Shown here piece by piece: positions 2,932-62,216 of a DNA stretch of 64,000 bases. A model generated the notes under the pieces. It searched no databases and was not told where the DNA came from. It saw nothing but the letters and a program-made list of their open reading frames with translations. The translations under genes were made by a program, and so were the position numbers. The stretch lies in NCBI RefSeq assembly GCF_055900595.2, contig NZ_CM148325.1, one strand, 5' to 3'. Within the stretch, counting starts at the first letter, position 1. Each line of letters opens with the position of its first letter.

Positions 2932-5265
2932 TTGGCCAACTCATCCTCACGTTATTCTGTTCTTACTGCCGCTCACTGGGGGCCCATGCTGGTTGAAACC
3001 GACGGCGAAACCGTGTTTAGCTCGCGTGGCGCGTTAGTCACAGAAATGAAAAACTCCTTGCAGAGTGCGGTTCGCGACCAGGTTCACAGCAAAACACGGG
3101 TACGATTTCCAATGGTGCGCAAGGGCTTTCTCGCGTCACCGGAAAACCCGCAAGGCATTCGTGGGCAGGATGAATTTGTTCGCGTGAGTTGGGATGAGGC
3201 GCTGGATCTCATCCATCATCAACATAAACGCATTCGTGAGGCTTATGGTCCGGCATCGATTTTTGCTGGTTCCTACGGCTGGCGTTCAAACGGCGTGCTG
3301 CATAAGGCCTCGACATTATTACAACGCTATATGGCGCTGGCAGGCGGTTATACCGGGCATCTGGGGGATTATTCGACCGGTGCAGCACAGGCGATCATGC
3401 CGTATGTCGTGGGGGGCAGCGAAGTTTATCAACAGCAAACCAGTTGGCCGCTGGTGCTGGAACATAGCGATGTCGTGGTGTTGTGGAGCGCTAACCCTCT
3501 CAATACGCTGAAAATTGCGTGGAATGCATCCGATGAGCAGGGGCTTTCTTACTTTTCCGCACTGCGTGACAGCGGGAAAAAGCTGATCTGCATTGATCCA
3601 ATGCGATCGGAAACCGTCGATTTCTTTGGCGATAAAATGGAGTGGGTGGCACCGCACATGGGCACCGATGTTGCGCTGATGCTGGGGATCGCCCATACGC
3701 TGGTGGAAAATGGCTGGCACGACGAAGCGTTTCTGGCGCGTTGCACCACAGGTTATGACGTCTTCGCCTCTTATTTGCTGGGCGAGAGTGACGGAATAGC
3801 GAAAAATGCCGAATGGGCGGCAGAAATTTGTGGGATTAACGCAGAAAAAATCCGCGAACTGGCGGCTATTTTTCATCAAAATACCACCATGCTGATGGCT
3901 GGCTGGGGAATGCAGCGCCAGCAGTTTGGTGAGCAAAAACACTGGATGATCGTCACCCTGGCAGCAATGTTAGGGCAAATCGGCACGCCTGGCGGGGGCT
4001 TTGGTCTTTCTTACCATTTTGCCAATGGTGGTAACCCTACGCGCCGCGCTGCGGTGCTTTCATCTATGCAGGGCAGCTTGCCAGGTGGCACCGATGCGGT
4101 AGATAAAATCCCCGTAGCCCGTATTGTTGAAGCTCTGGAAAACCCTGGCGGTGCATACCAACACAATGGCATGAACCGTCACTTCCCGGATATTCGTTTT
4201 ATCTGGTGGGCGGGCGGCGCCAACTTTACTCATCATCAGGATACCAATCGCCTGATTCGTGCCTGGCAAAAACCGGAGCTGGTGGTGATCTCCGAATGCT
4301 TCTGGACGGCAGCGGCGAAACACGCCGATATCGTCCTCCCTGCAACCACCTCGTTTGAGCGTAATGACCTCACCATGACCGGCGATTACAGTAATCAGCA
4401 TCTGGTGCCGATGAAGCAAGTGGTGCCTCCACGTTATGAAGCGCGTAATGATTTTGATGTCTTTGCCGAGTTGAGTGAACGTTGGGAGAAGGGCGGCTAT
4501 GCGCGGTTTACGGAAGGAAAAAGTGAGCTGCAATGGCTGGAAACGTTTTATAACGTTGCACGGCAGCGCGGGGCAAGCCAGCAGGTTGAATTGCCGCCAT
4601 TTGCTGAGTTCTGGGAAGCCAACCAGTTAATTGAGATGCCGGAAAACCCGGACAGCGAGCGGTTTATTCGCTTCGCCGATTTTCGCCGCGATCCGCAGGC
4701 GCATCCATTAAAAACCGCCAGCGGCAAGATTGAAATCTTCTCGCAGCGTATTGCCGATTACGCTTATCCGGATTGCCCTGGGCATCCAATGTGGCTGGAG
4801 CCGGACGAATGGCAGGGCAATGCCGAACCGGAACAGTTGCAGGTACTTTCTGCTCATCCGGCACATCGTCTGCACAGCCAGCTGAATTACAGTTCTCTGC
4901 GCGAATTGTACGCGGTGGCAAATCGTGAGCCTGTCACCATTCATCCTGACGATGCCCAGGCGCGCGGCATACAAGATGGCGATATTGTTCGGTTGTGGAA
5001 CGCACGCGGGCAAATTCTTGCCGGAGCGGTCATTAGCGAGGGAATTAAACCTGGCGTGATTTGCATTCATGAAGGGGCATGGCCGGATCTGGATTTAACC
5101 GCTGACGGTATTTGTAAAAACGGCGCGGTGAACGTTCTGACCAAAGATCTCCCCAGCTCGCGGCTGGGGAATGGCTGTGCGGGTAATACGGCGCTGGCAT
5201 GGCTGGAAAAATACAACGGTCCGGAACTGACACTTACAGCGTTTGAACCACCGGCCAGCTCATAA
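2932..5265 (+). CDS. bisC: biotin sulfoxide reductase, molybdopterin oxidoreductase (DMSO reductase family)
   Basis: 777-aa ORF recognised as BisC; track start is a non-ATG (TTG) codon, so the exact start is uncertain. Confidence 0.88.
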
Positions 5266-5674
5266 TCCAGGTGGGTAGTTGGGTTTCATCCTGCCATGCG
5301 CAGTCGACAATGTGAAAACCCTGCGCATGGTAAAAATCTATCGCCGGTTGATTTTTTTGATAAACCTCCAGCATCAGATGGGGATGGCGCTGCTGCACAT
5401 ACTGCATTAGCGCCTTACCAATACCGCGTCTGACGGCCTTCGGTGCGACAAACATTGCAGCCAGAAATCGGCCTTCCATAATGCTGACAAAACCGAGAAG
5501 CTTACCGTCTTCTTCCCAGACCCAGTTTTGCGCGTTGGCAAGATAGGCATCCCGCACCAGCGGAATGCAATCACGCCAGTAATTCGCTTTTATAAAGGGA
5601 TGCCCCCAGGTTGTACTTTCCAGCCACAATTCGAGGATCGCGGGGAGTTCTGAACGTTGCGCTTCCCGAATCAT
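5234..5674 (-). CDS. yiaC: GNAT-family N-acetyltransferase
   Basis: 146-aa ORF recognised as YiaC; GNAT-like motif RRGIGKALM; 3' end overlaps bisC convergently. Confidence 0.88.
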
Positions 5675-6234
5675 GGTTTATTTCCCGGATAGCAACAGCA
5701 GCCAACCACATGATCATTCACCAGCCCACATGCCTGCATAAAGGAGTAACAGATTGTGGTACCAACAAACTTAAAACCACGCTTTTTCAGGGCTTTAGAT
5801 AGAGCGTCGGAGGCGGGCGTAGATGTAGGGATTTCGCTCAACGTTGTGGCTTGTGTCACCTGTGGTTGATGATTGACAAACGACCAAACAAAGTCGGCAA
5901 ACGGTTCGCCGTTCTGTTCCATTTGCAGGTACGCTCGCGCATTACCAATAATTGCCTGAATTTTCCCGCGATGGCGGATAATCCCGGCGTCCTGTACCAG
6001 TCTTTCGACGTCCTCTTCCTGCATTGCAGCCACCTTCACCGGATCGAACTGATGAAAGCAGGCGCGATAGTTTTCGCGTTTTTTGAGGACGGTGATCCAC
6101 GATAACCCTGCTTGTTGCCCTTCAAGGCAGATCATTTCGAACAGTTTTTTACTGTCAGTTTCAGGCACGCCCCACTCATTATCATGGTAGGCAATATAAA
6201 GCGGGTCCTGACTCACCCAGCCGCAACGTTCCAT
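5671..6234 (-). CDS. tag: 3-methyladenine DNA glycosylase I
   Basis: ORF-track 5671..6471 trimmed to internal Met (MERCGWVSQDPLYIAYHDNEWGVP...), 187 aa; 4-bp overlap with yiaC start. Confidence 0.9.
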   Translation of the reverse strand: MERCGWVSQDPLYIAYHDNEWGVPETDSKKLFEMICLEGQQAGLSWITVLKKRENYRACFHQFDPVKVAAMQEEDVERLVQDAGIIRHRGKIQAIIGNARAYLQMEQNGEPFADFVWSFVNHQPQVTQATTLSEIPTSTPASDALSKALKKRGFKFVGTTICYSFMQACGLVNDHVVGCCCYPGNKP

Positions 6235-6391
6235 ACTTTCCCTCGCTATGTACCCGATCGTAAAAATTTCAGCCGCTTTTCTTGACGCATCGGTGAAAAA
6301 GTCAATATTTAATACAGGGCTACTATGCCCGATATCCTTCATACAATGACAATAATATTGCCGAATTCGGCTCTTCTCTGGAGTCGTGTTA

Positions 6392-7090
6392 ATGATCATA
6401 AAAAAAAGCGGTGGTCGCTGGCAGTTAAGCCTGCTGGCGAGCGTGGTAATCAGTGCCTTTTTTCTCAACACAGCTTACGCCTGGCAACAAGAATATATCG
6501 TTGATACGCAACCCGGACATTCCACAGAGCGCTACACCTGGGATAGCGATCATCAACCTGATTACAACGATATTCTGTCGCAACGTATTCAAAGTAGCCA
6601 AAGGGCGCTGGGACTGGAAGTCAATCTGGCGGAAGAAACCCCTGTGGATGTGACCAGCAGTATGAGTATGGGCTGGAATTTTCCTTTATATGAACAGGTT
6701 ACAACCGGCCCGGTCGCGGCATTACATTACGATGGTACAACCACCTCGATGTATAACGAGTTTGGCGACAGTACTACTACACTGACTGATCCGTTATGGC
6801 ATGCCAGCGTGAGTACCTTAGGCTGGCGTGTTGACTCCCGGCTTGGCGATCTCCGACCCTGGGCGCAAATCAGCTATAACCAGCAATTTGGCGAGAATAT
6901 CTGGAAGGCGCAATCAGGCTTAAGCCGGATGACGGCGACAAACCAGAACGGCAACTGGCTGGATGTCACGGTAGGTGCTGATATGTTGCTCAATCAAAAT
7001 ATTGCCGCCTACGCTGCGTTATCTCAGGCAGAAAATACCACGAACAATAATGACTATCTGTATACGATGGGGGTTAGTGCCAGATTTTAA
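6392..7090 (+). CDS. yhjY: YhjY, autotransporter beta-domain-like outer membrane protein
   Basis: ORF-track 6386..7090; ATG at 6392 gives 232 aa; ends in aromatic residue (…GVSARF) typical of outer-membrane beta-barrels. Confidence 0.8.
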   Translation: MIIKKSGGRWQLSLLASVVISAFFLNTAYAWQQEYIVDTQPGHSTERYTWDSDHQPDYNDILSQRIQSSQRALGLEVNLAEETPVDVTSSMSMGWNFPLYEQVTTGPVAALHYDGTTTSMYNEFGDSTTTLTDPLWHASVSTLGWRVDSRLGDLRPWAQISYNQQFGENIWKAQSGLSRMTATNQNGNWLDVTVGADMLLNQNIAAYAALSQAENTTNNNDYLYTMGVSARF

Positions 7091-7204
7091 CGTAACAGTC
7101 ACAATTAAAACCATTGAATAACAACAGTTGTGGCGATAGTGGGTGCTAACTTACCAAATAATAAATTTGGTGAATAATTGTCACGTCATTCATTCCTGAA
7201 CTAA

Positions 7205-7235
7205 GGCATTTCATTCCGTTCTGATGGCATTTCAT
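7205..7235 (+). promoter_or_regulatory. direct repeat GGCATTTCAT-N11-GGCATTTCAT upstream of yhjX (candidate YpdB response-regulator site)
   Basis: two exact 10-bp direct repeats at 7205-7214 and 7226-7235, about 85 bp upstream of the yhjX start; matches my recollection of the YpdB binding motif controlling yhjX. Confidence 0.6.
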
Positions 7236-7318
7236 GCCGTTTTTCCCCAGGCATAAAGTGCACTTCGTTATGGTTGTCAGCAGAGATTTTTCCTTTTTAT
7301 TACTGCAGGAATACTGCC

Positions 7319-8527
7319 ATGACACCTTCAAATTATCAGCGTACTCGCTGGCTGACACTCATCGGTACTATCATTACCCAGTTTGCCCTGGGGTCGGTTT
7401 ATACCTGGAGTCTGTTTAACGGCGCGCTTTCTGCCAAGCTGGGGGCTCCGGTAAGCCAGGTTGCTTTCTCTTTCGGCTTGTTAAGTCTGGGGCTGGCAAT
7501 TTCGTCTTCTGTTGCGGGCAAATTGCAAGAACGTTTTGGTGTTAAACGCGTCACTATGGCTTCCGGCATTTTGCTGGGATTAGGTTTCTTCCTGACAGCA
7601 CATTCCAACAACCTGATGATGCTGTGGTTAAGCGCCGGTGTGTTGGTTGGTCTGGCGGATGGTGCGGGCTACCTGCTGACGCTCTCAAACTGCGTGAAGT
7701 GGTTCCCGGAGCGTAAGGGACTCATCTCTGCTTTCGCTATTGGTTCTTATGGACTTGGTAGTCTGGGTTTCAAATTTATCGATACGCAACTGTTGGAAAC
7801 GGTCGGTCTGGAAAAAACCTTTGTTATTTGGGGCGCGATTGTACTGGTGATGATTATCTTTGGCGCAACGTTAATGAAAGATGCGCCGAAACAGGAAGTG
7901 AAAACCAGCAATGGTGTGGTGGAGAAGGATTACACGCTGGCAGAGTCGATGCGTAAACCGCAGTACTGGATGTTAGCAGTTATGTTCCTGACTGCCTGCA
8001 TGAGTGGCCTGTATGTGATTGGCGTGGCGAAAGATATCGCTCAAAGTCTGGCGCATCTTGATGCAATTTCCGCAGCCAATGCTGTGACGGTTATTTCCAT
8101 CGCCAACCTTTCTGGTCGTCTGGTGCTGGGCATTCTGTCTGACAAAATCGCCCGTATCCGTGTTATCACCATTGGTCAGGTCATTTCGCTGGTGGGCATG
8201 GCGGCCCTGCTGTTTGCCCCATTGAATGCAGTGACGTTCTTTGCAGCGATTGCCTGCGTGGCATTTAACTTCGGCGGCACTATCACGGTGTTCCCGTCAC
8301 TGGTCAGTGAGTTCTTCGGCCTAAATAATCTGGCAAAAAACTACGGTGTGATTTACCTCGGTTTCGGTATCGGCAGCATTTGTGGTTCGATTATCGCTTC
8401 ACTGTTTGGCGGATTCTATGTGACTTTCTACGTGATTTTCGCCCTGCTGATTCTGTCACTGGCGCTTTCTACGACGATTCGCCAGCCAGAGCAGAAAATG
8501 TTGCGTGAGGCGCATGGCTCCCTTTAA
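7319..8527 (+). CDS. yhjX: MFS transporter (oxalate/formate antiporter-like), pyruvate-inducible
   Basis: ORF-track 7274..8527 trimmed to ATG 7319 (MTPSNYQRTRWLTLIG...), 402 aa, multiple hydrophobic helices. Confidence 0.88.
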   Translation: MTPSNYQRTRWLTLIGTIITQFALGSVYTWSLFNGALSAKLGAPVSQVAFSFGLLSLGLAISSSVAGKLQERFGVKRVTMASGILLGLGFFLTAHSNNLMMLWLSAGVLVGLADGAGYLLTLSNCVKWFPERKGLISAFAIGSYGLGSLGFKFIDTQLLETVGLEKTFVIWGAIVLVMIIFGATLMKDAPKQEVKTSNGVVEKDYTLAESMRKPQYWMLAVMFLTACMSGLYVIGVAKDIAQSLAHLDAISAANAVTVISIANLSGRLVLGILSDKIARIRVITIGQVISLVGMAALLFAPLNAVTFFAAIACVAFNFGGTITVFPSLVSEFFGLNNLAKNYGVIYLGFGIGSICGSIIASLFGGFYVTFYVIFALLILSLALSTTIRQPEQKMLREAHGSL

Positions 8528-8611
8528 TGACCTGCCGCGAGCTACTGGGCTTTAGCCTTAGTGTGAATCAAACGCTTCAACGCAATGTATAAACAATGAC
8601 GCGTAAAATTT

Positions 8612-8635
8612 GGGCCAGTGAACTGGCCCTTTTTA
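8612..8635 (+). terminator. intrinsic terminator downstream of yhjX
   Basis: GGGCCAGTGAACTGGCCC hairpin followed by TTTTT. Confidence 0.7.
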
Positions 8636-8850
8636 CTGCTTTTTGTAACGCTAAAGTCTCTTTTCAAACTTGCATTTTTGTAAATTTGTGCTTCATGCAC
8701 ACTCTTTCCCCACACTTTTTCCCTTTGCTGTGGTCTACTTATTCGCGCGTGTAGATTTTACTTATCTGACTACCTCCGCACTTTTCCCCTGCCGGGCCTG
8801 AAAAGCCACAAAGCAGGGTGTTATCACCTGTTTGTCCAGGGTTTGTTTGC

Positions 8851-10633: not shown

Positions 10634-10710
<77 letters not shown>

Positions 10711-10715
10711 ATTTA

Positions 10716-10744
10716 GAAAAACCAGCCTACGGGCTGGTTTTTTG
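10716..10744 (+). terminator. intrinsic terminator downstream of proK
   Basis: CCAGCCTACGGGCTGG hairpin followed by TTTTTT. Confidence 0.75.
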
Positions 10745-10859
10745 CTTTCTGCGACCTGAAGAGGATAAGAACCTCCGGGGGCAGAGAGGTTCGACTCGAG
10801 CAAAGCGAGAGAACGTTGCGTCAGCAACGGCCCGCAGGGCGAGCCACGCAGTGGCGAGT

Positions 10860-10879
10860 AATCCTCTGGCACCGACCAA
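10860..10879 (+). repeat. imperfect direct repeat (18/20) of the proK 3' end
   Basis: AATCCTCTGGCACCGACCAA versus tRNA 3' end AATCCTCTATCACCGACCAA at 10692-10711. Confidence 0.6.
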
Positions 10880-10889
10880 ATCTGAACGT

Positions 10890-10972
10890 AGGCCTGATAA
10901 GACGCGTCAGCGCCGCATCAGGCAACGGCACCGCACTTATTGTCGGATGCGGCGTGAACGCCTTATCTGACC
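10890..10972. repeat. REP/BIME-type extragenic palindromes
   Basis: AGGCCTGATAAGACGCGTCAGCGCCGCATCAGGC and GGATGCGGCGTGAACGCCTTATCTGACC resemble the E. coli REP consensus. Confidence 0.7.
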
Positions 10973-13186: not shown

Positions 13187-13286
13187 GCCGGATGCGCTCC
13201 GCTTATCAGGCCTACGAGAGTTCTGCAATGTATTGAGTTTGCACGATTTTGTAGGCCGGATAAGGCGTTCACGCCGTATCCGGCAT
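13187..13286. repeat. REP/BIME element in the dppA-dppB intergenic region
   Basis: inverted pair GCCGGATGCG...TTATCAGGCCTAC / GTAGGCCGGATAAGGCGTTCACGCCGTATCCGGC. Confidence 0.75.
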
Positions 13287-17412: not shown

Positions 17413-18684
17413 TTACTCAATCAGCTTCAACAGTGGCGACAAGCATAACAAAATGCCGTACAGCAGAATCATCCAGGCTTTAAACCCGCGAAGTTTTTCC
17501 AGTTGTGAGACTTTATAGATCAGGAAAAATGGAATGAGGCACGACACAATGCCATATAACGGGCTTCCCAACTGAAAGAACACCAGCACCGATACACGAA
17601 ACGAAACCCAAATCGTCAACGTAATGACGATAAAAGCGCAGATCGCCAGAGTCAGCATGCGTGAGTTAATTTTCTTGGTATCAATAATTCGGCTTAACAG
17701 ATTGAGAATAATGCCTTTAATGGCCTCGTGGAAACCGAGATAAATGCCAAAGAATGCGGTCAGTACGGCAAAGATATTCAGCACCGTAGAGGTGATATGA
17801 ATGATATGCCCAGGGATCACCTGCGCGGCCAGTGCCAGTGCCGAGATATTTTGTTCAAAGGCAGAAACGGCTTCTTCGTGGCTAATTGAGAAGGTAAACG
17901 AAAAGGCAAAAAACAGGATCACCGCGATGAGCGTGACATAACTAATTCGGTGGGTACGCAGCGCGAGCCGGGTTGCCAGTACTTTATCCGCTTCCCGTTT
18001 ACGATAGGCAATATTCATTGGGTTAAGTACCTGAATAAATACCGCAGAAAAGAAGCAAAAGGGAATGGTAAGCAGGACATCGCGGAAAAAGACGGAGGCT
18101 TGCGGGAAGGCGGTTATATTGGCGAAATTCCAGTGCGGGATCATCGCAAAACCGAACACGACGATAATCCCTACTTTGACCACCACCATTGGCCCGGAAA
18201 TCTTAAACAGTAATCGTTCACCACCAGACGCAATTGCCACCAGTACGGCGAAAATGGCGACTTTATAAAGTAGAGATTGTGAAAGATCGGCATCGGTTAA
18301 ACCGAAGGTTTTCAGGTACGAGGCGCTGTCGAAAACCACGGAGAGAGAGTAGATAAAAATCCCGTGGATAATCATCAAAAAGTAGATAACCCCGAGGAAA
18401 ATTCCCCAGTTCTTCCCCAGGTAATGACTGATAATATCGGTGTAGTCATTACAGGAATCGCTTTCAGAAAGGGTTTTTAAATAAATGTCCTGCACTACCC
18501 AGGTGGCAGGATAAGCAATGATCGCTGCGGTAATAAATACCCAAATTCCCTTCAAGCCAATTTGTACTGGCATCAGCACGGTTCCGGCACCAATCGCCAT
18601 GCCTATGCATAATAAAACCCAGCCGAAGTCGTAGCGTGTAAACGGCATTTTCTGATCGTGTTTCGGTAGTGTGTTGTGCTGCAT
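17413..18684 (-). CDS. yhjV: amino-acid transporter-like inner membrane protein (HAAAP/serine-threonine transporter family)
   Basis: ORF-track 17413..18747 trimmed to Met at 18684 ([22 protein letters not shown]...), about 423 aa, polytopic. Confidence 0.85.
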
Positions 18685-19044
18685 AAAGTCCTGTCCAGAA
18701 AGAAGTCGGCCTCGCAAAAATGAATAAACCCAGTTTCTCTTGCGCAACAGGTGGAGAAGTCGAATACGCAGTATGTAAAAAATGAGGCAATAGATTCACT
18801 GGGGAGGTCGCGAGGAGGCGCAATTCTACAAAATTGCGCATTTCACTACCAGTCTGGAGTCAGCCCGGATATGAACTGCAACTATTGCAAATAAAGAAAT
18901 TAAGCTGGAAGGTATCACGCAATGAGGAAGGTTGCCGGGTGCTGACGGTAAAAAGCAATCGTAAAATCAGCGGCAAGCCGGAAAGGTTCCGGTGAGGCGC
19001 AATGTTGCGGGGGCTTAATCCCTGGTGGCATTGGTTGCTGGAGA

Positions 19045-19112
19045 GAGAAAACCCCCGCACGTTGCAGATATTCACCTGACAACATCACGGGGGCTAATCT
19101 TGAACCTAGACC
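19045..19112 (-). ncRNA. rdlD: candidate Rdl antisense RNA, module 1 (approximate ends)
   Basis: minus-strand hairpin CGGGGG...CCCCCG (19052-19093) followed by T-run; upstream on minus strand a candidate promoter TTGTAA-17-TATTCT; about 65 nt, antisense to the ldr leader. Confidence 0.45.
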
Positions 19113-19159
19113 ACTCAAGAATAGCCGCGAAACGTTGTCATTACAACACAGGCGGCTAT

Positions 19160-19267
19160 ATGACGCTCGCAGAACTGGGCATGGCCTTCTGGCATGATTT
19201 AGCGGCTCCGGTCATCGCTGGCATTCTTGCCAGCATGATCGTGAACTGGCTGAATAAGCGGAAGTAA
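19160..19267 (+). CDS. ldrD: LdrD-type type I toxin peptide, module 1 (35 aa)
   Basis: MTLAELGMAFWHDLAAPVIAGILASMIVNWLNKRK; single TM helix with basic C-terminus; recognised as Ldr family. Confidence 0.85.
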   Translation: MTLAELGMAFWHDLAAPVIAGILASMIVNWLNKRK

Positions 19268-19317
19268 CGTGTCAGACGGGCGTCAGGCTGCCGTAATGGC
19301 AATTTGCGCCCGGACCA

Positions 19318-19349
19318 GGCCGCAGGGATAAAACTCTGCGGCCTTTTTC
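19318..19349 (+). terminator. intrinsic terminator of ldr mRNA, module 1 (equivalents at about 19801, 20285, 20768)
   Basis: GGCCGCAGGGATAAAACTCTGCGGCC hairpin followed by TTTTT. Confidence 0.75.
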
Positions 19350-19527
19350 GTAAGAAAAATGCAACGGTTGCAAGCGGATAATATTCTGCGGAATGCGCAG
19401 CACAGAGTGAAGAAGTGACGGATTCCGGAACAGAAAAACAGTCGTAGAATCAGCGGCAAGCCGGAAGGGTTCCGGTGAGGCGCAATGTTGCGGGGGCTTT
19501 ATCCCTGGTGGCATTGGGTGCTGGAGA

Positions 19528-19595
19528 GAGAAAACCCCCGCACGTTGCAGGTATGCACCTGACAACACCACGGGGGCCATTCTTGCATCCAAACA
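19528..19595 (-). ncRNA. rdlD: candidate Rdl antisense RNA, module 2 (approximate ends)
   Basis: same architecture as module 1 shifted +483 bp; hairpin arms at 19535-19540 and 19571-19576; candidate -10 (plus-strand AGAATA) at 19601-19606. Confidence 0.45.
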
Positions 19596-19642
19596 ATACA
19601 AGAATAGCCGCGAAACGTTGTCATTACAACACAGGCGGCTAT

Positions 19643-19750
19643 ATGACGCTCGCAGAACTGGGCATGGCCTTCTGGCATGATTTAGCGGCTCCGGTCATTG
19701 CTGGCATTCTTGCCAGTCTGATCGTGAACTGGCTGAATAAGCGGAAGTAA
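19643..19750 (+). CDS. ldrD: LdrD-type type I toxin peptide, module 2 (35 aa)
   Basis: MTLAELGMAFWHDLAAPVIAGILASLIVNWLNKRK (M26L relative to module 1). Confidence 0.85.
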   Translation: MTLAELGMAFWHDLAAPVIAGILASLIVNWLNKRK

Positions 19751-20011
19751 CGTGTCAGACGGGCGTCAGGCTGCCGTAATGGCAATTTGCGCCCGGACCA
19801 GGCTGCAGGGATAAAACTCTGCGGCCTTTTTCGTAAGAAAAATGCAACGGTTGCAAGCGGATAATATTCTGCGGAATGCGCAGCACAGAGTGAAGAAGTG
19901 ATGGATTTCGACGAGCAAAAATGGCCGTAGAATCAGCGGCAAGCCGGAAGGGTTCCGGTGAGGCGCAATGTTGCGGGGGGCTTTATCCCTGGTGGCATTG
20001 GTTGCTGGAGA

Positions 20012-20079
20012 GAGAAAACCCCCGCACGTTGCAGGTATGCACCTGGCAACACCACGGGGGCCATTCTTGCATCTAGACC
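20012..20079 (-). ncRNA. rdlD: candidate Rdl antisense RNA, module 3 (approximate ends)
   Basis: hairpin arms at 20019-20024 and 20055-20060; -10 complement at 20085-20090. Confidence 0.45.
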
Positions 20080-20126
20080 ATTCAAGAATAGCCGTGAAAC
20101 GTTGTCATTACAACAGAGGCGGCTAT

Positions 20127-20234
20127 ATGACGCTCGCAGAACTGGGCATGGCCTTCTGGCATGATTTAGCGGCTCCGGTCATCGCTGGCATTCTTGCCAG
20201 TCTGATCGTGAACTGGCTGAACAAGCGGAAGTAA
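20127..20234 (+). CDS. ldrD: LdrD-type type I toxin peptide, module 3 (35 aa)
   Basis: MTLAELGMAFWHDLAAPVIAGILASLIVNWLNKRK. Confidence 0.85.
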   Translation: MTLAELGMAFWHDLAAPVIAGILASLIVNWLNKRK

Positions 20235-20494
20235 CGTGTCAGACGGGCGTCAGGCTGCCGTAATGGCAATTTGCGCCCGGATCAGGCCGCAGGGATAAAA
20301 CTCTGCGGCCTTTTTCGTAAGAAAAATGCAACGGTTGCAAGCGGATAATATTCTGCGGAATGCGCAGCACAGAGTGAAGAAGTGACGGATTCCGGAACAG
20401 AAAAACAGTCGTAGAATCAGCGGCAAGCCGGAAGGGTTCCGGTGAGGCGCAATGTTGCGGGGGCTTTATCCCTGGTGGCATTGGTTGCTGGAGA

Positions 20495-20562
20495 GAGAAA
20501 ACCCCCGCATATTGCAGGTATGCACCTGACAACATCACGGGGGCCATTCTTGAACCTACACA
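20495..20562 (-). ncRNA. rdlD: candidate Rdl antisense RNA, module 4 (approximate ends)
   Basis: periodic equivalent of modules 1-3; the -10 complement here reads AGAGTA, a weaker match. Confidence 0.4.
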
Positions 20563-20609
20563 ACTCAAGAGTAGCCGCGAAACGTTGTCATTACAACACT
20601 GGCGGCTAT

Positions 20610-20717
20610 ATGACGCTCGCAGAGCTGGGCATGGCCTTCTGGCACGATTTAGCGGCTCCGGTCATTGCTGGCATTCTTGCCAGTCTGATCGTGAACTGGC
20701 TGAACAAGCGGAAGTAA
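20610..20717 (+). CDS. ldrD: LdrD-type type I toxin peptide, module 4 (35 aa)
   Basis: MTLAELGMAFWHDLAAPVIAGILASLIVNWLNKRK. Confidence 0.85.
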   Translation: MTLAELGMAFWHDLAAPVIAGILASLIVNWLNKRK

Positions 20718-20977
20718 CGTGTCGGACGAGCGTCAGGCTGCCGTAATGGCAATTTGCGCCCGGACCAGGCCGCAGGGATAAAACTCTGCGGCCTTTTTCG
20801 TAAGAAAAATGCAACGGTTGCAAGCGGATAATATTCTGCGGAATGCGCAGCACAGAGTGAAGAAGTGACGGATTCCGGAACAGAAAAACAGTCGTAGAAT
20901 CAGCGGCAAGCCGGAAGGGTTCCGGTGAGGCGCAATGTTGCGGGGGCTTAATCCCTGGTGGCATTGGTTGCTGGAGA

Positions 20978-21045
20978 GAGAAAACCCCCGCACGTTGCAG
21001 GTATGCACCTGACAACATCACGGGGGCTAATCTTGAACCCAAACA
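20978..21045 (-). ncRNA. rdlD: candidate Rdl antisense RNA, module 5 (approximate ends)
   Basis: periodic equivalent; position relative to the ldr ORF and bcsG matches the K-12 ldrD/rdlD arrangement as I recall it. Confidence 0.45.
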
Positions 21046-21092
21046 ACTCAAGAATAGCCGCGAAACGTTGTCACTACAACAGAGGCGGCTAT

Positions 21093-21200
21093 ATGACGCT
21101 CGCAGAACTGGGCATGTCCTTCTGGCATGATTTAGCGGCTCCGGTCATTGCTGGCATTCTTGCCAGTCTGATCGTGAACTCGCTGAATAAGCGGAAGTAA
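21093..21200 (+). CDS. ldrD: LdrD-type type I toxin peptide, module 5, variant (35 aa)
   Basis: MTLAELGMSFWHDLAAPVIAGILASLIVNSLNKRK; A9S and W30S relative to modules 2-4. Confidence 0.75.
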   Translation: MTLAELGMSFWHDLAAPVIAGILASLIVNSLNKRK

Positions 21201-21250
21201 CGTGTCATGCGGGCGTCAGGCTGCCGTAATGGCAATTTGCGCCCGGATCA

Positions 21251-21283
21251 GGCCGCAGGGGTGAAACTCTGCGGCCTTTTTCG
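21251..21283 (+). terminator. intrinsic terminator of ldr mRNA, module 5, abutting the bcsG stop
   Basis: GGCCGCAGGGGTGAAACTCTGCGGCC followed by TTTTT; the bcsG stop codon (minus strand) lies at 21287-21289. Confidence 0.75.
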
Positions 21284-21286
21284 TTC

Positions 21287-56124: not shown

Positions 56125-56140
56125 TTTTTACCCAGACATA

Positions 56141-56245
56141 AAAAAAACCCGGCATAGGGGACCGGGAAGAGGATAGTCTGCCGTCTCCAGACTAATAAAC
56201 CGTTATAACACTCCCTGTTGGCACGGGAAACTTTGTGCTCTCAGT
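56141..56245 (-). ncRNA. gadY: GadY small RNA (approximate ends)
   Basis: minus-strand hairpin CCCGGTCCCCTATGCCGGG followed by an 8-T run lies about 20 nt beyond the gadX stop, matching the known GadY 3' end; the 5' end is estimated from the roughly 105-nt size I recall. Confidence 0.5.
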
Positions 56246-56491
56246 AAGTTAAATATAACTTTTACTGGAGATAAGATCAGCCATTTTTTTATAAACATAA
56301 GCTATGCGCTGTGTGAAAATATATTCTTCTTGCATTTTCTTATTATCAATTAACTGTTATGTCAAACTACTTTTTGGATAACTTTTGGTCCTACCAAATA
56401 TGGCAGTTTATGCACGAAGAAGCGGTCTGGCATCATTTCATTAGTATACTGAAATTGAAATAATCGCAGTAATGAAATATAAGGGATAGTC

Positions 56492-61878: not shown

Positions 61879-62216
61879 TTTAGTCCCTGAAAATTCTTGA
61901 GATATAACGGTTCTTTAAATTGCGCGCGAGGAGAGGTATGAGGGATTTACAGACCAGCGGCATAGTGGGGTTGTCAGCCAGTAAGATGGGATGCAAGCAC
62001 AGTGATCGACATGGTGAGGTCAACGACAAAAAAAATGTTGCCGTTCTGCCAACAGTTCCTGCCAGCATTCGGGCAACGAAGGGTTCTACTGGTGGATACA
62101 CATACCAGGGGAATAAAGTCGTTTTCGCCTCTCCTTTAGTCATCACCGGGGATAATGAAATCAGCATCTGCATCCCTCTTCATGCCTGCCATCATTTTCA
62201 GTTAATTATGTCCTGA

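What the first reader, a model, noticed from the sequence alone, without database searches (positions are those of the whole stretch)
18950..21285. Five-module tandem LDR (ldr/rdl type I toxin-antitoxin) array where K-12 has one
Five near-identical modules of 483-484 bp sit between yhjV and bcsG. Each has a leader with hairpins, a 35-aa Ldr toxin ORF (starts 19160, 19643, 20127, 20610, 21093) and an intrinsic terminator. As I recall, K-12 has a single LDR-D at this position and a three-copy LDR-A/B/C array elsewhere. Five LdrD-type copies here would be a strain-specific expansion, presumably by unequal crossing-over, and it raises toxin gene dosage at a locus transcribed convergently with bcsEFG. 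The last terminator ends about 4 bp from the bcsG stop codon. A candidate ldr promoter -10 (TAAAAT in module 1, TAGAAT in modules 2-5) sits about 190 bp upstream of each ORF, giving a predicted mRNA of about 370 nt.
Basis: partly seen in the sequence, partly recalled or inferred. Interest (0 to 1): 0.65.

Follow-up and report, generated by a model that had tools for sequence, protein, structure and literature searches.

The report
Five-copy ldr/rdl toxin-antitoxin array
This is a real tandem array of five complete copies of the known E. coli LdrD/RdlD small-toxin and antisense-RNA module; copy number at this site varies from one to at least five, probably six, among E. coli strains, so the finding is ordinary.

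Summary
Bases 18951-21284 hold five 483/484-bp modules between yhjV and bcsG. Each has a 35-aa Ldr ORF, an intrinsic terminator and, on the opposite strand, an RdlD antisense RNA gene scoring 80-90 bits against an Rfam cutoff of 50.

The region is 100% identical to E. coli Z0117EC0005, where RefSeq already annotates five Ldr toxins. K-12 does have one copy here.

The "strain-specific expansion" reading is not supported:
- In sampled E. coli genomes the locus holds 1 (~39%), 2 (~10%), 3 (~34%) or 4 (~17%) copies.
- Flank-joining counts over 5,421 genomes imply about 57 with five copies (1%) and about 17 with six.
- Eight independent assemblies share identical flanks and the same five-copy spacing, and the SMS-3-5 lineage also has five, so an assembly artefact is unlikely.
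- The five modules differ from each other at 17-26 of 400 positions, but each has a closer relative (6-16 differences) in another strain. They are old paralogues reshuffled by unequal recombination, not a recent burst.

One lead is worth keeping. The single-stranded 5' tail of Rdl is the most variable part of the module and is different in all five copies.

Lineage-specific Ldr duplication is already published. Low interest.

The parts
18951..21284 (+). Whole LDR-D-type array: five tandem modules. m1 18951-19433, m2 19434-19916, m3 19917-20400, m4 20401-20883, m5 20884-21284 (the last ends at its terminator and lacks the 84-nt spacer).
   Evidence: TRF period 483, 4.8 copies, 94% match; alignment of the five modules; 100% identical to NZ_CP098223.1, where PGAP annotates five Ldr toxins.
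19160..19267 (+). ldr toxin ORF, module 1: MTLAELGMAFWHDLAAPVIAGILASMIVNWLNKRK.
   Evidence: ORF list and translation. One substitution (F3L) relative to K-12 LdrD. A common allele seen on >=1000 contigs.
19643..19750 (+). ldr toxin ORF, module 2 (M26L variant).
   Evidence: This exact protein was seen on 831 contigs.
20127..20234 (+). ldr toxin ORF, module 3 (M26L variant).
20610..20717 (+). ldr toxin ORF, module 4 (M26L variant).
21093..21200 (+). ldr toxin ORF, module 5: a variant with A9S, M26L and W30S. It has lost the tryptophan that is conserved in the Ldr/Fst superfamily.
   Evidence: Pfam PF13940 Ldr_toxin, E 3.8e-23. This exact protein was seen on 455 contigs, and W30S without A9S on >=1000.
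19046..19111 (-). rdl antisense RNA, module 1 (66 nt). It is complementary to the ldr 5' UTR 49-114 nt upstream of the start codon.
   Evidence: Rfam RF01813, 85.5 bits. Fold: 5' single-stranded tail followed by a long terminator hairpin, z -5.0.
19529..19594 (-). rdl antisense RNA, module 2.
   Evidence: RF01813, 81.7 bits; fold.
20013..20078 (-). rdl antisense RNA, module 3.
   Evidence: RF01813, 80.4 bits; fold.
20496..20561 (-). rdl antisense RNA, module 4.
   Evidence: RF01813, 79.7 bits; fold.
20979..21044 (-). rdl antisense RNA, module 5.
   Evidence: RF01813, 90.4 bits; fold.
19118..19146 (-). Candidate rdl promoter, module 1: TTGTAA (19146-19141), 17-nt spacer, TATTCT (19123-19118), 6 nt before the Rdl 5' end at 19111. 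The same element sits at the same offset in every module; module 4 has TACTCT and module 5 has TTGTAG.
   Evidence: Read from the sequence and the alignment with K-12 rdlD. It scores 8 of 12, below the 9 of 12 threshold of the promoter scan. Inferred, not mapped.
18962..18967 (+). Candidate ldr -10 hexamer, module 1 (TAAAAT). The equivalents are TAGAAT at 19445-19450, 19928-19933, 20412-20417 and 20895-20900. No convincing -35 element.
   Evidence: K-12 also has TAGAAT at this position. The implied mRNA of about 376 nt fits the roughly 370-nt ldrD mRNA I recall from Kawano 2002 (from memory, not checked). No hit in the consensus promoter scan.
19317..19349 (+). ldr intrinsic terminator, module 1. 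The equivalents are at 19800-19832, 20284-20316, 20767-20799 and 21250-21282.
   Evidence: Terminator scan: 11-bp stem, 7-8 GC pairs, T run.
19094..19111 (-). Hypervariable 5' single-stranded tail of Rdl (nt 1-18), module 1. The equivalents are 19577-19594, 20061-20078, 20544-20561 and 21027-21044. All five tails are different.
   Evidence: Nucleotide diversity is 0.197, against 0.045 for the whole module, 0.050 at ldr third-codon positions and 0.053 in the spacer. The eight highest-diversity 18-nt windows listed all start at positions 145-153, inside or overlapping the tail region.
19002..19079 (+). 25-codon leader ORF with a GAGG Shine-Dalgarno 4 nt upstream. It is also at 19485-19562, 20452-20529 and 20935-21012, and in K-12. 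In module 3 an extra G in the G run puts the same ATG (19968) in frame with ldr, giving an 88-codon ORF (19968-20234).
   Evidence: Whether it is translated is unknown. It may or may not be the 'ldrX' proposed by Gerdes and Wagner (as cited in PMC4147584).
19350..19433 (.). 84-nt inter-module spacer. It is also at 19833-19916, 20317-20400 and 20800-20883, and is absent from single-copy loci such as K-12. The copies are nearly identical except for the last ~12 nt of the second.
   Evidence: Alignments.
17413..18684 (-). yhjV, the left flanking gene.
   Evidence: RefSeq annotation of the identical genome; ORF.
21287..22966 (-). bcsG, the right flanking gene, convergent with the ldr genes.

Best explanation
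The region is a genuine tandem array of five complete LdrD/RdlD-type type I toxin-antitoxin modules at the chromosomal site where K-12 carries its single LDR-D.

How each module is built. On the + strand it makes a structured ldr mRNA of about 376 nt. This has a 5' UTR of about 185 nt whose Shine-Dalgarno sequence is predicted to be sequestered in a hairpin, then a 35-aa membrane toxin ORF and an intrinsic terminator. On the - strand it makes a 66-nt Rdl RNA from its own promoter. Rdl is perfectly complementary to the UTR 49-114 nt upstream of the start codon.

How it works, by analogy with K-12 ldrD/rdlD. Rdl pairs with the UTR through its single-stranded 5' tail and blocks toxin translation. 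The duplex is cut by RNase III. The exact way translation is blocked is unresolved in the literature; coupling to a leader ORF has been proposed.

How the array arose. It is not a recent or strain-specific amplification. It is one allele of a copy-number polymorphism, with one to five copies read directly and six inferred from counts, built from old, diverged paralogous modules. Unequal homologous recombination between the 483-bp units gains and loses them.

Shown versus inferred. Shown here: anatomy, family membership, population distribution and module relationships. Inferred: transcription, toxicity and repression in this strain.
For: Anatomy and family:
- establish the module anatomy. The ldr mRNA fold has z -5.8, and AGCCGCG pairs with the AGGCGGCU that holds the Shine-Dalgarno sequence.
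- One search places the most divergent toxin in Pfam Ldr_toxin at E 3.8e-23.

Locus:
- One search shows K-12 ldrD and rdlD at the same locus.
- Searches show K-12 is collinear with the modules.

Not an artefact:
- The region is 100% identical to NZ_CP098223.1, which has five annotated Ldr genes.
- Eight genomes with 100%-identical flanks all show the same 6334-bp span.
- Nine records are >=99% identical over the whole 3301-nt query.
- The modules differ at 17-26 of 400 sites, so repeat collapse or expansion in assembly is unlikely.

Polymorphism:
- Among genomes queried with the two flanks joined, 89 returned the flanks as two separate places when the joining limit was 2000 bp, 32 at 2500 bp and 15 at 3000 bp. 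This implies about 57 genomes with five copies and about 17 with six.
- Sampled spans gave 1, 2, 3 and 4 copies in 39%, 10%, 34% and 17% of rows.
- Worked examples: O26 11368 has 4 copies, ETEC4071 has 3, CFT073 has 2, and SMS-3-5 and LR882050 have 5.

Old paralogues:
- Each window module has a nearer relative in another strain (6-16 differences) than in its own array.

Literature:
- Lineage-specific Ldr duplications, with Ldr/Fst-family toxin counts of 3-10 per genome (PMC2887945).
- ldrD-rdlD duplexes cut by RNase III in vivo (PMC7373196).
- RdlD blocks LdrD toxicity, mechanism unresolved (PMC4147584).
Against: - No expression data exist for this strain.
- The consensus promoter scan found no sigma-70 site at its threshold. 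The ldr promoter lacks a convincing -35 element.
- The module 5 toxin lacks the conserved Trp30. Module 3 has a frameshift in the leader ORF. Not all five modules need be equally active.
- The five- and six-copy counts come from an indirect method based on flank-joining thresholds. Genomes with disrupted loci add a few counts of noise.
- The genome collection is biased towards sequenced clones.
Confidence: 0.9

Rival explanations
1. Recent, strain-specific amplification of a single LDR-D by unequal crossing-over, raising toxin dosage.
For: K-12 and O157:H7 have one copy. Five copies is rare, about 1% of genomes. Some other strains do show recent local duplications: LR882050 modules 3-5 and O26 modules 2-3 are nearly identical.
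Against: The window modules differ from each other by 17-26 of 400 positions, but by only 6-16 from modules in other strains. All five carry different Rdl tail types, four of which recur in other strains among the 29 modules compared; module 4's does not. The same array is present in eight or nine genomes, and five-copy arrays occur in unrelated lineages such as SMS-3-5. About 61% of sampled genomes have at least two copies. A two-copy array is present in Escherichia sp. E1V33.
Confidence: 0.05
2. Assembly artefact: the repeat was expanded or mis-assembled, and the true copy number is lower.
For: Tandem repeats can be mis-assembled. Only the assembly itself is available for this window.
Against: Eight complete genomes from different projects share identical flanks and the same span. 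Nine records are >=99% identical across the array. The modules are 4-6.5% diverged, with 47 variable columns among the five, which makes them individually resolvable.
Confidence: 0.02
3. A partly decayed array in which only some modules are live toxin-antitoxin pairs. Module 5 would be an attenuated toxin (W30S, A9S). Module 3 would be misregulated, because its leader ORF is frameshifted into the ldr frame.
For: W30S removes the tryptophan that Fozo et al. call a superfamily signature. The +1 G in module 3 fuses the leader ATG to ldr. The module 4 rdl -10 is TACTCT and the module 5 -35 is TTGTAG.
Against: All five ORFs are intact. All five Rdl genes score 80-90 bits. All terminators are intact. 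The W30S and A9S+W30S proteins are common alleles, seen on >=1000 and 455 contigs, which suggests they are tolerated or maintained rather than freshly broken. The 484-bp (+G) module form recurs in SMS-3-5 and FDAARGOS_1280.
Confidence: 0.3

Closest known systems
LDR-D (ldrD/rdlD) of E. coli K-12 MG1655 (Kawano et al. 2002; b4453/b4454)
   Same: Same chromosomal site between bcsG and yhjV. Collinear sequence from the -10 hexamer to the terminator. A 35-aa toxin differing by 1-4 residues. A 64-66-nt antisense RNA opposite the 5' UTR.
   Different: Five tandem units instead of one. An 84-nt inter-module spacer that is absent from K-12. Rdl 5' tails that differ from K-12's and from each other. A W30S toxin variant in the last unit.
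LDR-A/B/C tandem array of K-12 (ldrABC/rdlABC)
   Same: A tandem array of complete ldr/rdl modules in one intergenic region (PMC4147584).
   Different: A different locus and the LdrB-type sequence group (Fozo 2010). It has three units with a longer period, as I recall. It lies outside the window and was not examined here.
Five-copy LDR-D arrays in other sequenced E. coli (SMS-3-5, isolate 2016-02-324 and others)
   Same: Same locus, same period and five annotated Ldr genes.
   Different: Different combinations and order of module types. For example, LR882050 carries three near-identical K-12-type units, whereas the window has five different types.
ibs/sib and zor/orz tandem type I toxin-antitoxin loci
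   Same: Chromosomal type I modules duplicated in tandem, with copy number varying among strains. Sib RNAs are reported to discriminate cognate targets (abstract listed; PMC11264685).
   Different: Unrelated toxins. The antisense RNA covers the ORF (ibs/sib) or is trans-encoded nearby (zor/orz), rather than lying opposite the distal 5' UTR.
hok/sok
   Same: A long structured toxin mRNA. A short antisense RNA with a single-stranded 5' recognition tail that targets the leader, not the toxin start. A proposed leader-ORF coupling.
   Different: An unrelated toxin family. The ldr leader-ORF mechanism is unproven, and the leader ORF seen here does not overlap the ldr start.

Membership tests
Ldr/Rdl type I toxin-antitoxin (LdrD group) | 35-aa hydrophobic toxin matching the Ldr_toxin profile | tested here: met
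   Pfam PF13940, E 3.8e-23, full length 1-35, for the most divergent copy. The other four copies are 1-2 substitutions from K-12 LdrD. NCBIfam returned nothing for these peptides.
Ldr/Rdl type I toxin-antitoxin (LdrD group) | cis-encoded antisense RNA of about 60-66 nt on the opposite strand, overlapping the 5' UTR but not the ORF | tested here: met
   Five full-length RF01813 hits, 79.7-90.4 bits against a gathering score of 50. Each ends 49 nt upstream of its ldr start codon.
Ldr/Rdl type I toxin-antitoxin (LdrD group) | Long structured toxin mRNA (about 370 nt) ending in an intrinsic terminator | tested here: met
   In silico only. The distance from the -10 hexamer to the terminator is about 376 nt. 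MFE -169 kcal/mol, z -5.8. Five terminators. Transcript ends were not measured.
Ldr/Rdl type I toxin-antitoxin (LdrD group) | Conserved tryptophan after the transmembrane helix, followed by charged C-terminal residues (Ldr/Fst signature, Fozo 2010) | tested here: met
   Met in modules 1-4 (W30, then NKRK). Not met in module 5, which has S30.
Ldr/Rdl type I toxin-antitoxin (LdrD group) | Position of LDR-D: the yhjV-bcsG intergenic region | tested here: met
   E. albertii has ldrD beside bcsG (yhjV is not on that short contig); Escherichia sp. E1V33 has two copies between yhjV and bcsG.
Ldr/Rdl type I toxin-antitoxin (LdrD group) | Toxin kills or arrests cells on overexpression, and the cognate Rdl relieves this | not testable with these tools
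   Shown for K-12 LdrD/RdlD in the literature (PMC4147584). Not shown for these alleles.
hok/sok-like leader-ORF coupling (the 'ldrX' model) | A leader ORF whose start is masked by the antisense RNA and whose translation is coupled to the toxin start | tested here: inconclusive
   A 25-codon ORF with a Shine-Dalgarno sequence is present in K-12 and in modules 1, 2, 4 and 5. However, it starts 44 nt upstream of the Rdl target, ends inside it, and stops 80 nt before the ldr ATG. In module 3 it is frameshifted into the ldr frame. The original ldrX definition could not be read.

The most novel reading that the evidence does not exclude
The LDR-D array may be a set of mutually insulated toxin-antitoxin pairs rather than redundant copies.

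The 18-nt single-stranded 5' tail of Rdl is the presumed recognition element. It is by far the most diverse segment of the module, with diversity of 0.197 against about 0.05 at third-codon and spacer sites. It falls into about eight discrete types that recur across strains, and it is different in all five units of this array. Non-cognate tail-target pairs carry 2-6 mismatches.

This pattern would fit diversifying or balancing selection for cognate-only repression, as described for Sib/Ibs. Arrays would then be assembled from different specificity types by recombination.
Probability: 0.3. Interest if true: 0.45.

Novelty: already known. Interest (0 to 1): 0.18.

Why it matters
It matters little as stated. 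The family, its tandem duplication and its lineage-specific copy number are published, and this exact array is already annotated in RefSeq.

Two modest points are useful:
- K-12's single LDR-D is not the typical state. Most sampled E. coli carry two to four copies, which matters to anyone generalising ldrD/rdlD results from K-12 or counting toxin-antitoxin loci.
- The concentration of diversity in the Rdl recognition tail gives a cheap, testable hypothesis about how tandem type I modules avoid or exploit cross-repression.

Tried and rejected
- The NCBIfam scan of the three toxin variants and the leader peptide returned nothing. Pfam was used instead.
- The consensus promoter scan found no site at its 9 of 12 threshold. 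The promoters given here were read by eye against K-12 and remain candidates.
- I looked for a -35 element for the ldr promoter. Only poor or mis-spaced matches were found: CTGACA/CTGACG at 14 nt and TTGCCG/GTGACG at 24 nt.
- Kawano 2012, which would define ldrX, is not held. I could not decide whether the 25-codon leader ORF is ldrX.
One E. albertii contig ends inside the repeat, and one 'Bacillus' contig is probably contamination. The ancestral copy number in the genus therefore stays open.
- The 'places per record' figure from the full-array query was rejected as a copy-number measure, because off-register alignments inflate it. The span between flanks was used instead.
- My module-finding regex missed modules in L010 and one in L014. 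These were left out of the diversity estimate.
- I did not determine the total Ldr count of the source genome, including the LDR-A/B/C locus.
- I considered whether the last terminator could also terminate bcsEFG. There is no T run on the - strand side, and K-12 has the same arrangement, so this is not specific to the array.
Full report
**1. Observation**

The stretch 18951-21284 is a single tandem array with period 483, 4.8 copies, 94% matches and no indels. Aligning the five units gives 483/484-bp modules. The last is cut short just after its terminator.

Each module contains:
- a 35-codon ORF on the + strand, starting at 19160, 19643, 20127, 20610 and 21093;
- a strong terminator hairpin on the + strand;
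- a full-length match to Rfam RF01813 (rdlD antitoxin) on the - strand, at 79.7-90.4 bits against a gathering score of 50, itself closed by a hairpin and T run.

The array lies between yhjV (17413-18684, -) and bcsG (21287-22966, -). The last T run ends 5 nt before the bcsG stop codon.

**2. Identity**

The region with its flanks is 100% identical to E. coli Z0117EC0005 (NZ_CP098223.1, from a dog in South Korea). NCBI's pipeline already annotates five 'type I toxin-antitoxin system toxin Ldr family' genes there. The most divergent of the five peptides matches Pfam Ldr_toxin over its full length, E 3.8e-23.

K-12 MG1655 has one ldrD and one rdlD at the same site. Its sequence is collinear with the modules from the -10 hexamer to the terminator. 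K-12 lacks only the 84-nt inter-module spacer.

**3. Anatomy and likely mechanism**

- ldr promoter: a -10-like hexamer (TAAAAT in module 1, TAGAAT in modules 2-5 and in K-12) lies 198 nt upstream of each ATG. I found no convincing -35 element, and the consensus scan reports nothing.
- ldr mRNA: the transcript from there to the terminator would be about 376 nt. It is predicted to be very structured (z -5.8), with the Shine-Dalgarno sequence paired in a local hairpin.
- Rdl: starts at a G, 6 nt after TATTCT, with TTGTAA 17 nt further upstream. It folds as a single-stranded tail of about 11-16 nt followed by a long hairpin. It is complementary to the ldr leader 49-114 nt upstream of the start codon.
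- K-12 literature: RdlD blocks LdrD toxicity, but the mechanism is unresolved; coupling to a leader ORF 'ldrX' has been proposed (PMC4147584; PMC8167048). The ldrD-rdlD duplex is cut by RNase III in vivo (PMC7373196).

I infer the same mechanism for each module here. Nothing about expression in this strain was measured.

**4. How unusual are five copies?**

I used the span between the two flanks as a copy-number ruler: about 400 bp for one copy, plus 483 bp for each additional copy.

Sampled rows of two searches gave 1 copy in 36 of 93 rows, 2 copies in 9, 3 copies in 32 and 4 copies in 16.

To count the upper tail exactly, I queried concatenated flanks of 3, 4 and 5 kb. The tool joins two aligned pieces only when they lie within 2000, 2500 or 3000 bp respectively. 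The number of genomes in which the flanks stayed apart fell from 89 to 32 to 15, out of about 5,421. That gives:
- about 57 genomes with five copies (1.05%);
- about 17 genomes with six copies (0.3%);
- at most 15 genomes with seven or more copies or a disrupted locus.

Inspected examples:

| Strain | Copies |
|---|---|
| K-12 | 1 |
| O157:H7 | 1 |
| CFT073 | 2 |
| ETEC4071 | 3 |
| FDAARGOS_1280 | 3 |
| O26:H11 11368 | 4 |
| SMS-3-5 | 5 |
| Isolate 2016-02-324 (LR882050) | 5 |

Five is therefore uncommon but not unique, and multi-copy is the majority state.

**5. Not an artefact**

Eight complete genomes from different projects have 100%-identical flanks and the same 6334-bp span. Nine records are >=99% identical over the whole 3301-nt query. 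The five modules differ at 47 alignment columns, so they are individually resolvable in assembly.

**6. Not a recent burst**

Over the 400-nt core, the window's modules differ from each other at 17-26 positions. Each has a closer relative in another strain:
- m1 is 6 differences from SMS-3-5 unit 1;
- m2 is 7 from ETEC4071 unit 2;
- m3 is 7 from FDAARGOS_1280 unit 2;
- m5 is 9 from SMS-3-5 unit 5 and from CFT073 unit 2;
- m4 is 16 from its nearest relative.

In the neighbour-joining tree the five modules fall in different clades. The array is thus a combination of old paralogues. Copy number presumably changes by unequal recombination between units.

Recent duplications do occur elsewhere. LR882050 units 3-5 and O26 units 2-3 are nearly identical.

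A two-copy array lies between yhjV and bcsG in Escherichia sp. E1V33, and ldrD sits next to bcsG in E. albertii. The locus therefore predates E. coli.

Fozo et al. 2010 already concluded that Ldr loci evolve by lineage-specific duplication. They list 3 to 10 Ldr/Fst-family toxins per genome in Escherichia and Shigella (PMC2887945). A 2024 copy-number survey covered tisB, shoB and zor but not ldr (PMC11264685).

**7. A lead worth recording**

Across 29 modules from nine genomes, nucleotide diversity is:

| Segment | Diversity |
|---|---|
| First 18 nt of Rdl (single-stranded tail) | 0.197 |
| Leader, Rdl hairpin and ldr coding sequence | 0.02-0.03 |
| ldr third-codon positions | 0.050 |
| Spacer | 0.053 |

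The eight highest-diversity 18-nt windows listed all start at positions 145-153, overlapping this tail region. The tails fall into about eight discrete types that recur across strains. The window carries five different types.

Non-cognate tail-target pairs have 2-6 mismatches and lose 2-23 kcal/mol of predicted duplex energy. Two directions stay nearly isoenergetic through G-U pairs (Rdl2 on ldr3 and Rdl5 on ldr1).

This fits selection for cognate-specific repression, but there are weaker explanations. The segment may simply be the least constrained part of the module. Arrays with duplicated tail types also exist (O26, SMS-3-5, LR882050). I found no paper on Rdl cross-talk in the library.

**8. 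Other details**

- The module 5 toxin carries A9S and W30S, so it has lost the tryptophan that Fozo et al. treat as a superfamily signature. This allele is common: it was seen on 455 contigs, and W30S alone on >=1000.
- All modules and K-12 carry a 25-codon leader ORF with a good Shine-Dalgarno sequence. In module 3 an extra G fuses it in frame to ldr, giving an 88-codon ORF. The same 484-bp module form recurs in other strains.

**9. Verdict**

This is a correct observation of a known system. The copy-number contrast with K-12 is real, but it reflects a widespread, old polymorphism rather than a strain-specific event. Novelty: already known. Interest: low. A modest, testable hypothesis about antitoxin specificity comes out of it.

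Noticed in passing
window 19094-19111, 19577-19594, 20061-20078, 20544-20561, 21027-21044 (- strand): The single-stranded 5' tail of Rdl is the diversity hot spot of the module: 0.197, against about 0.05 at third-codon and spacer sites. It is different in all five units, and about eight discrete tail types recur across strains.
   Followed up: partly
window 21093-21200: The module 5 Ldr peptide has A9S and W30S, losing the conserved Trp of the Ldr/Fst family. The allele is nevertheless common: this exact protein was seen on 455 contigs, and W30S alone on >=1000.
   Followed up: partly
window 19002-19079 (and 19485, 20452, 20935); module 3 19968-20234: A 25-codon leader ORF with a GAGG Shine-Dalgarno sequence is conserved in K-12 and in four modules. 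In module 3 a +1 G in a G run puts its ATG in frame with ldr, giving an 88-codon ORF. The same 484-bp form occurs in SMS-3-5 and FDAARGOS_1280.
   Followed up: partly
window 19350-19433 and equivalents: The 84-nt inter-module spacer is nearly invariant between units, although it has no assigned function and is absent from single-copy loci such as K-12. The last ~12 nt differ in the second spacer.
   Followed up: no
L002 (NZ_CP122673.1, ETEC4071) 4871-8754: bcsG is truncated and abuts a partial bcsC, which indicates a deletion inside the cellulose operon right next to the LDR array. Other ETEC records with about 78% flank coverage may share it.
   Followed up: no
hits H197 (NZ_CP124326.1) and H188 (NZ_CP157095.1): In these genomes the joined flank match spans extra DNA. 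One includes a HipA-family type II toxin gene and the other an integrase or IS gene. Where exactly the insertion sits was not checked.
   Followed up: no
summary: 29 of 28,181 LDR-like matches lie on plasmids, although type I loci of this family are considered chromosomal and not horizontally mobile.
   Followed up: no
L015 (NZ_JABWSY010000055.1, 'Bacillus sp.', 503 bp, coverage 0.66): A tiny low-coverage contig in a Bacillus assembly encodes an E. coli-type LdrD (94% identity). This is almost certainly contamination.
   Followed up: no
L011, L012, L013 (Kluyvera genomosp. 3 CP022114.1): Three dispersed LdrD-like ORFs (60-66% identity) lie at separate chromosomal sites, not in tandem.
   Followed up: no
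window 56135-56248 (-), 10634-10972, 62028-62099 (-), 13208-13250 (-): Other Rfam hits in the window: GadY; a tRNA with RtT and naRNA4; ES205; ES036. All are ordinary E. coli small RNAs.
   Followed up: no
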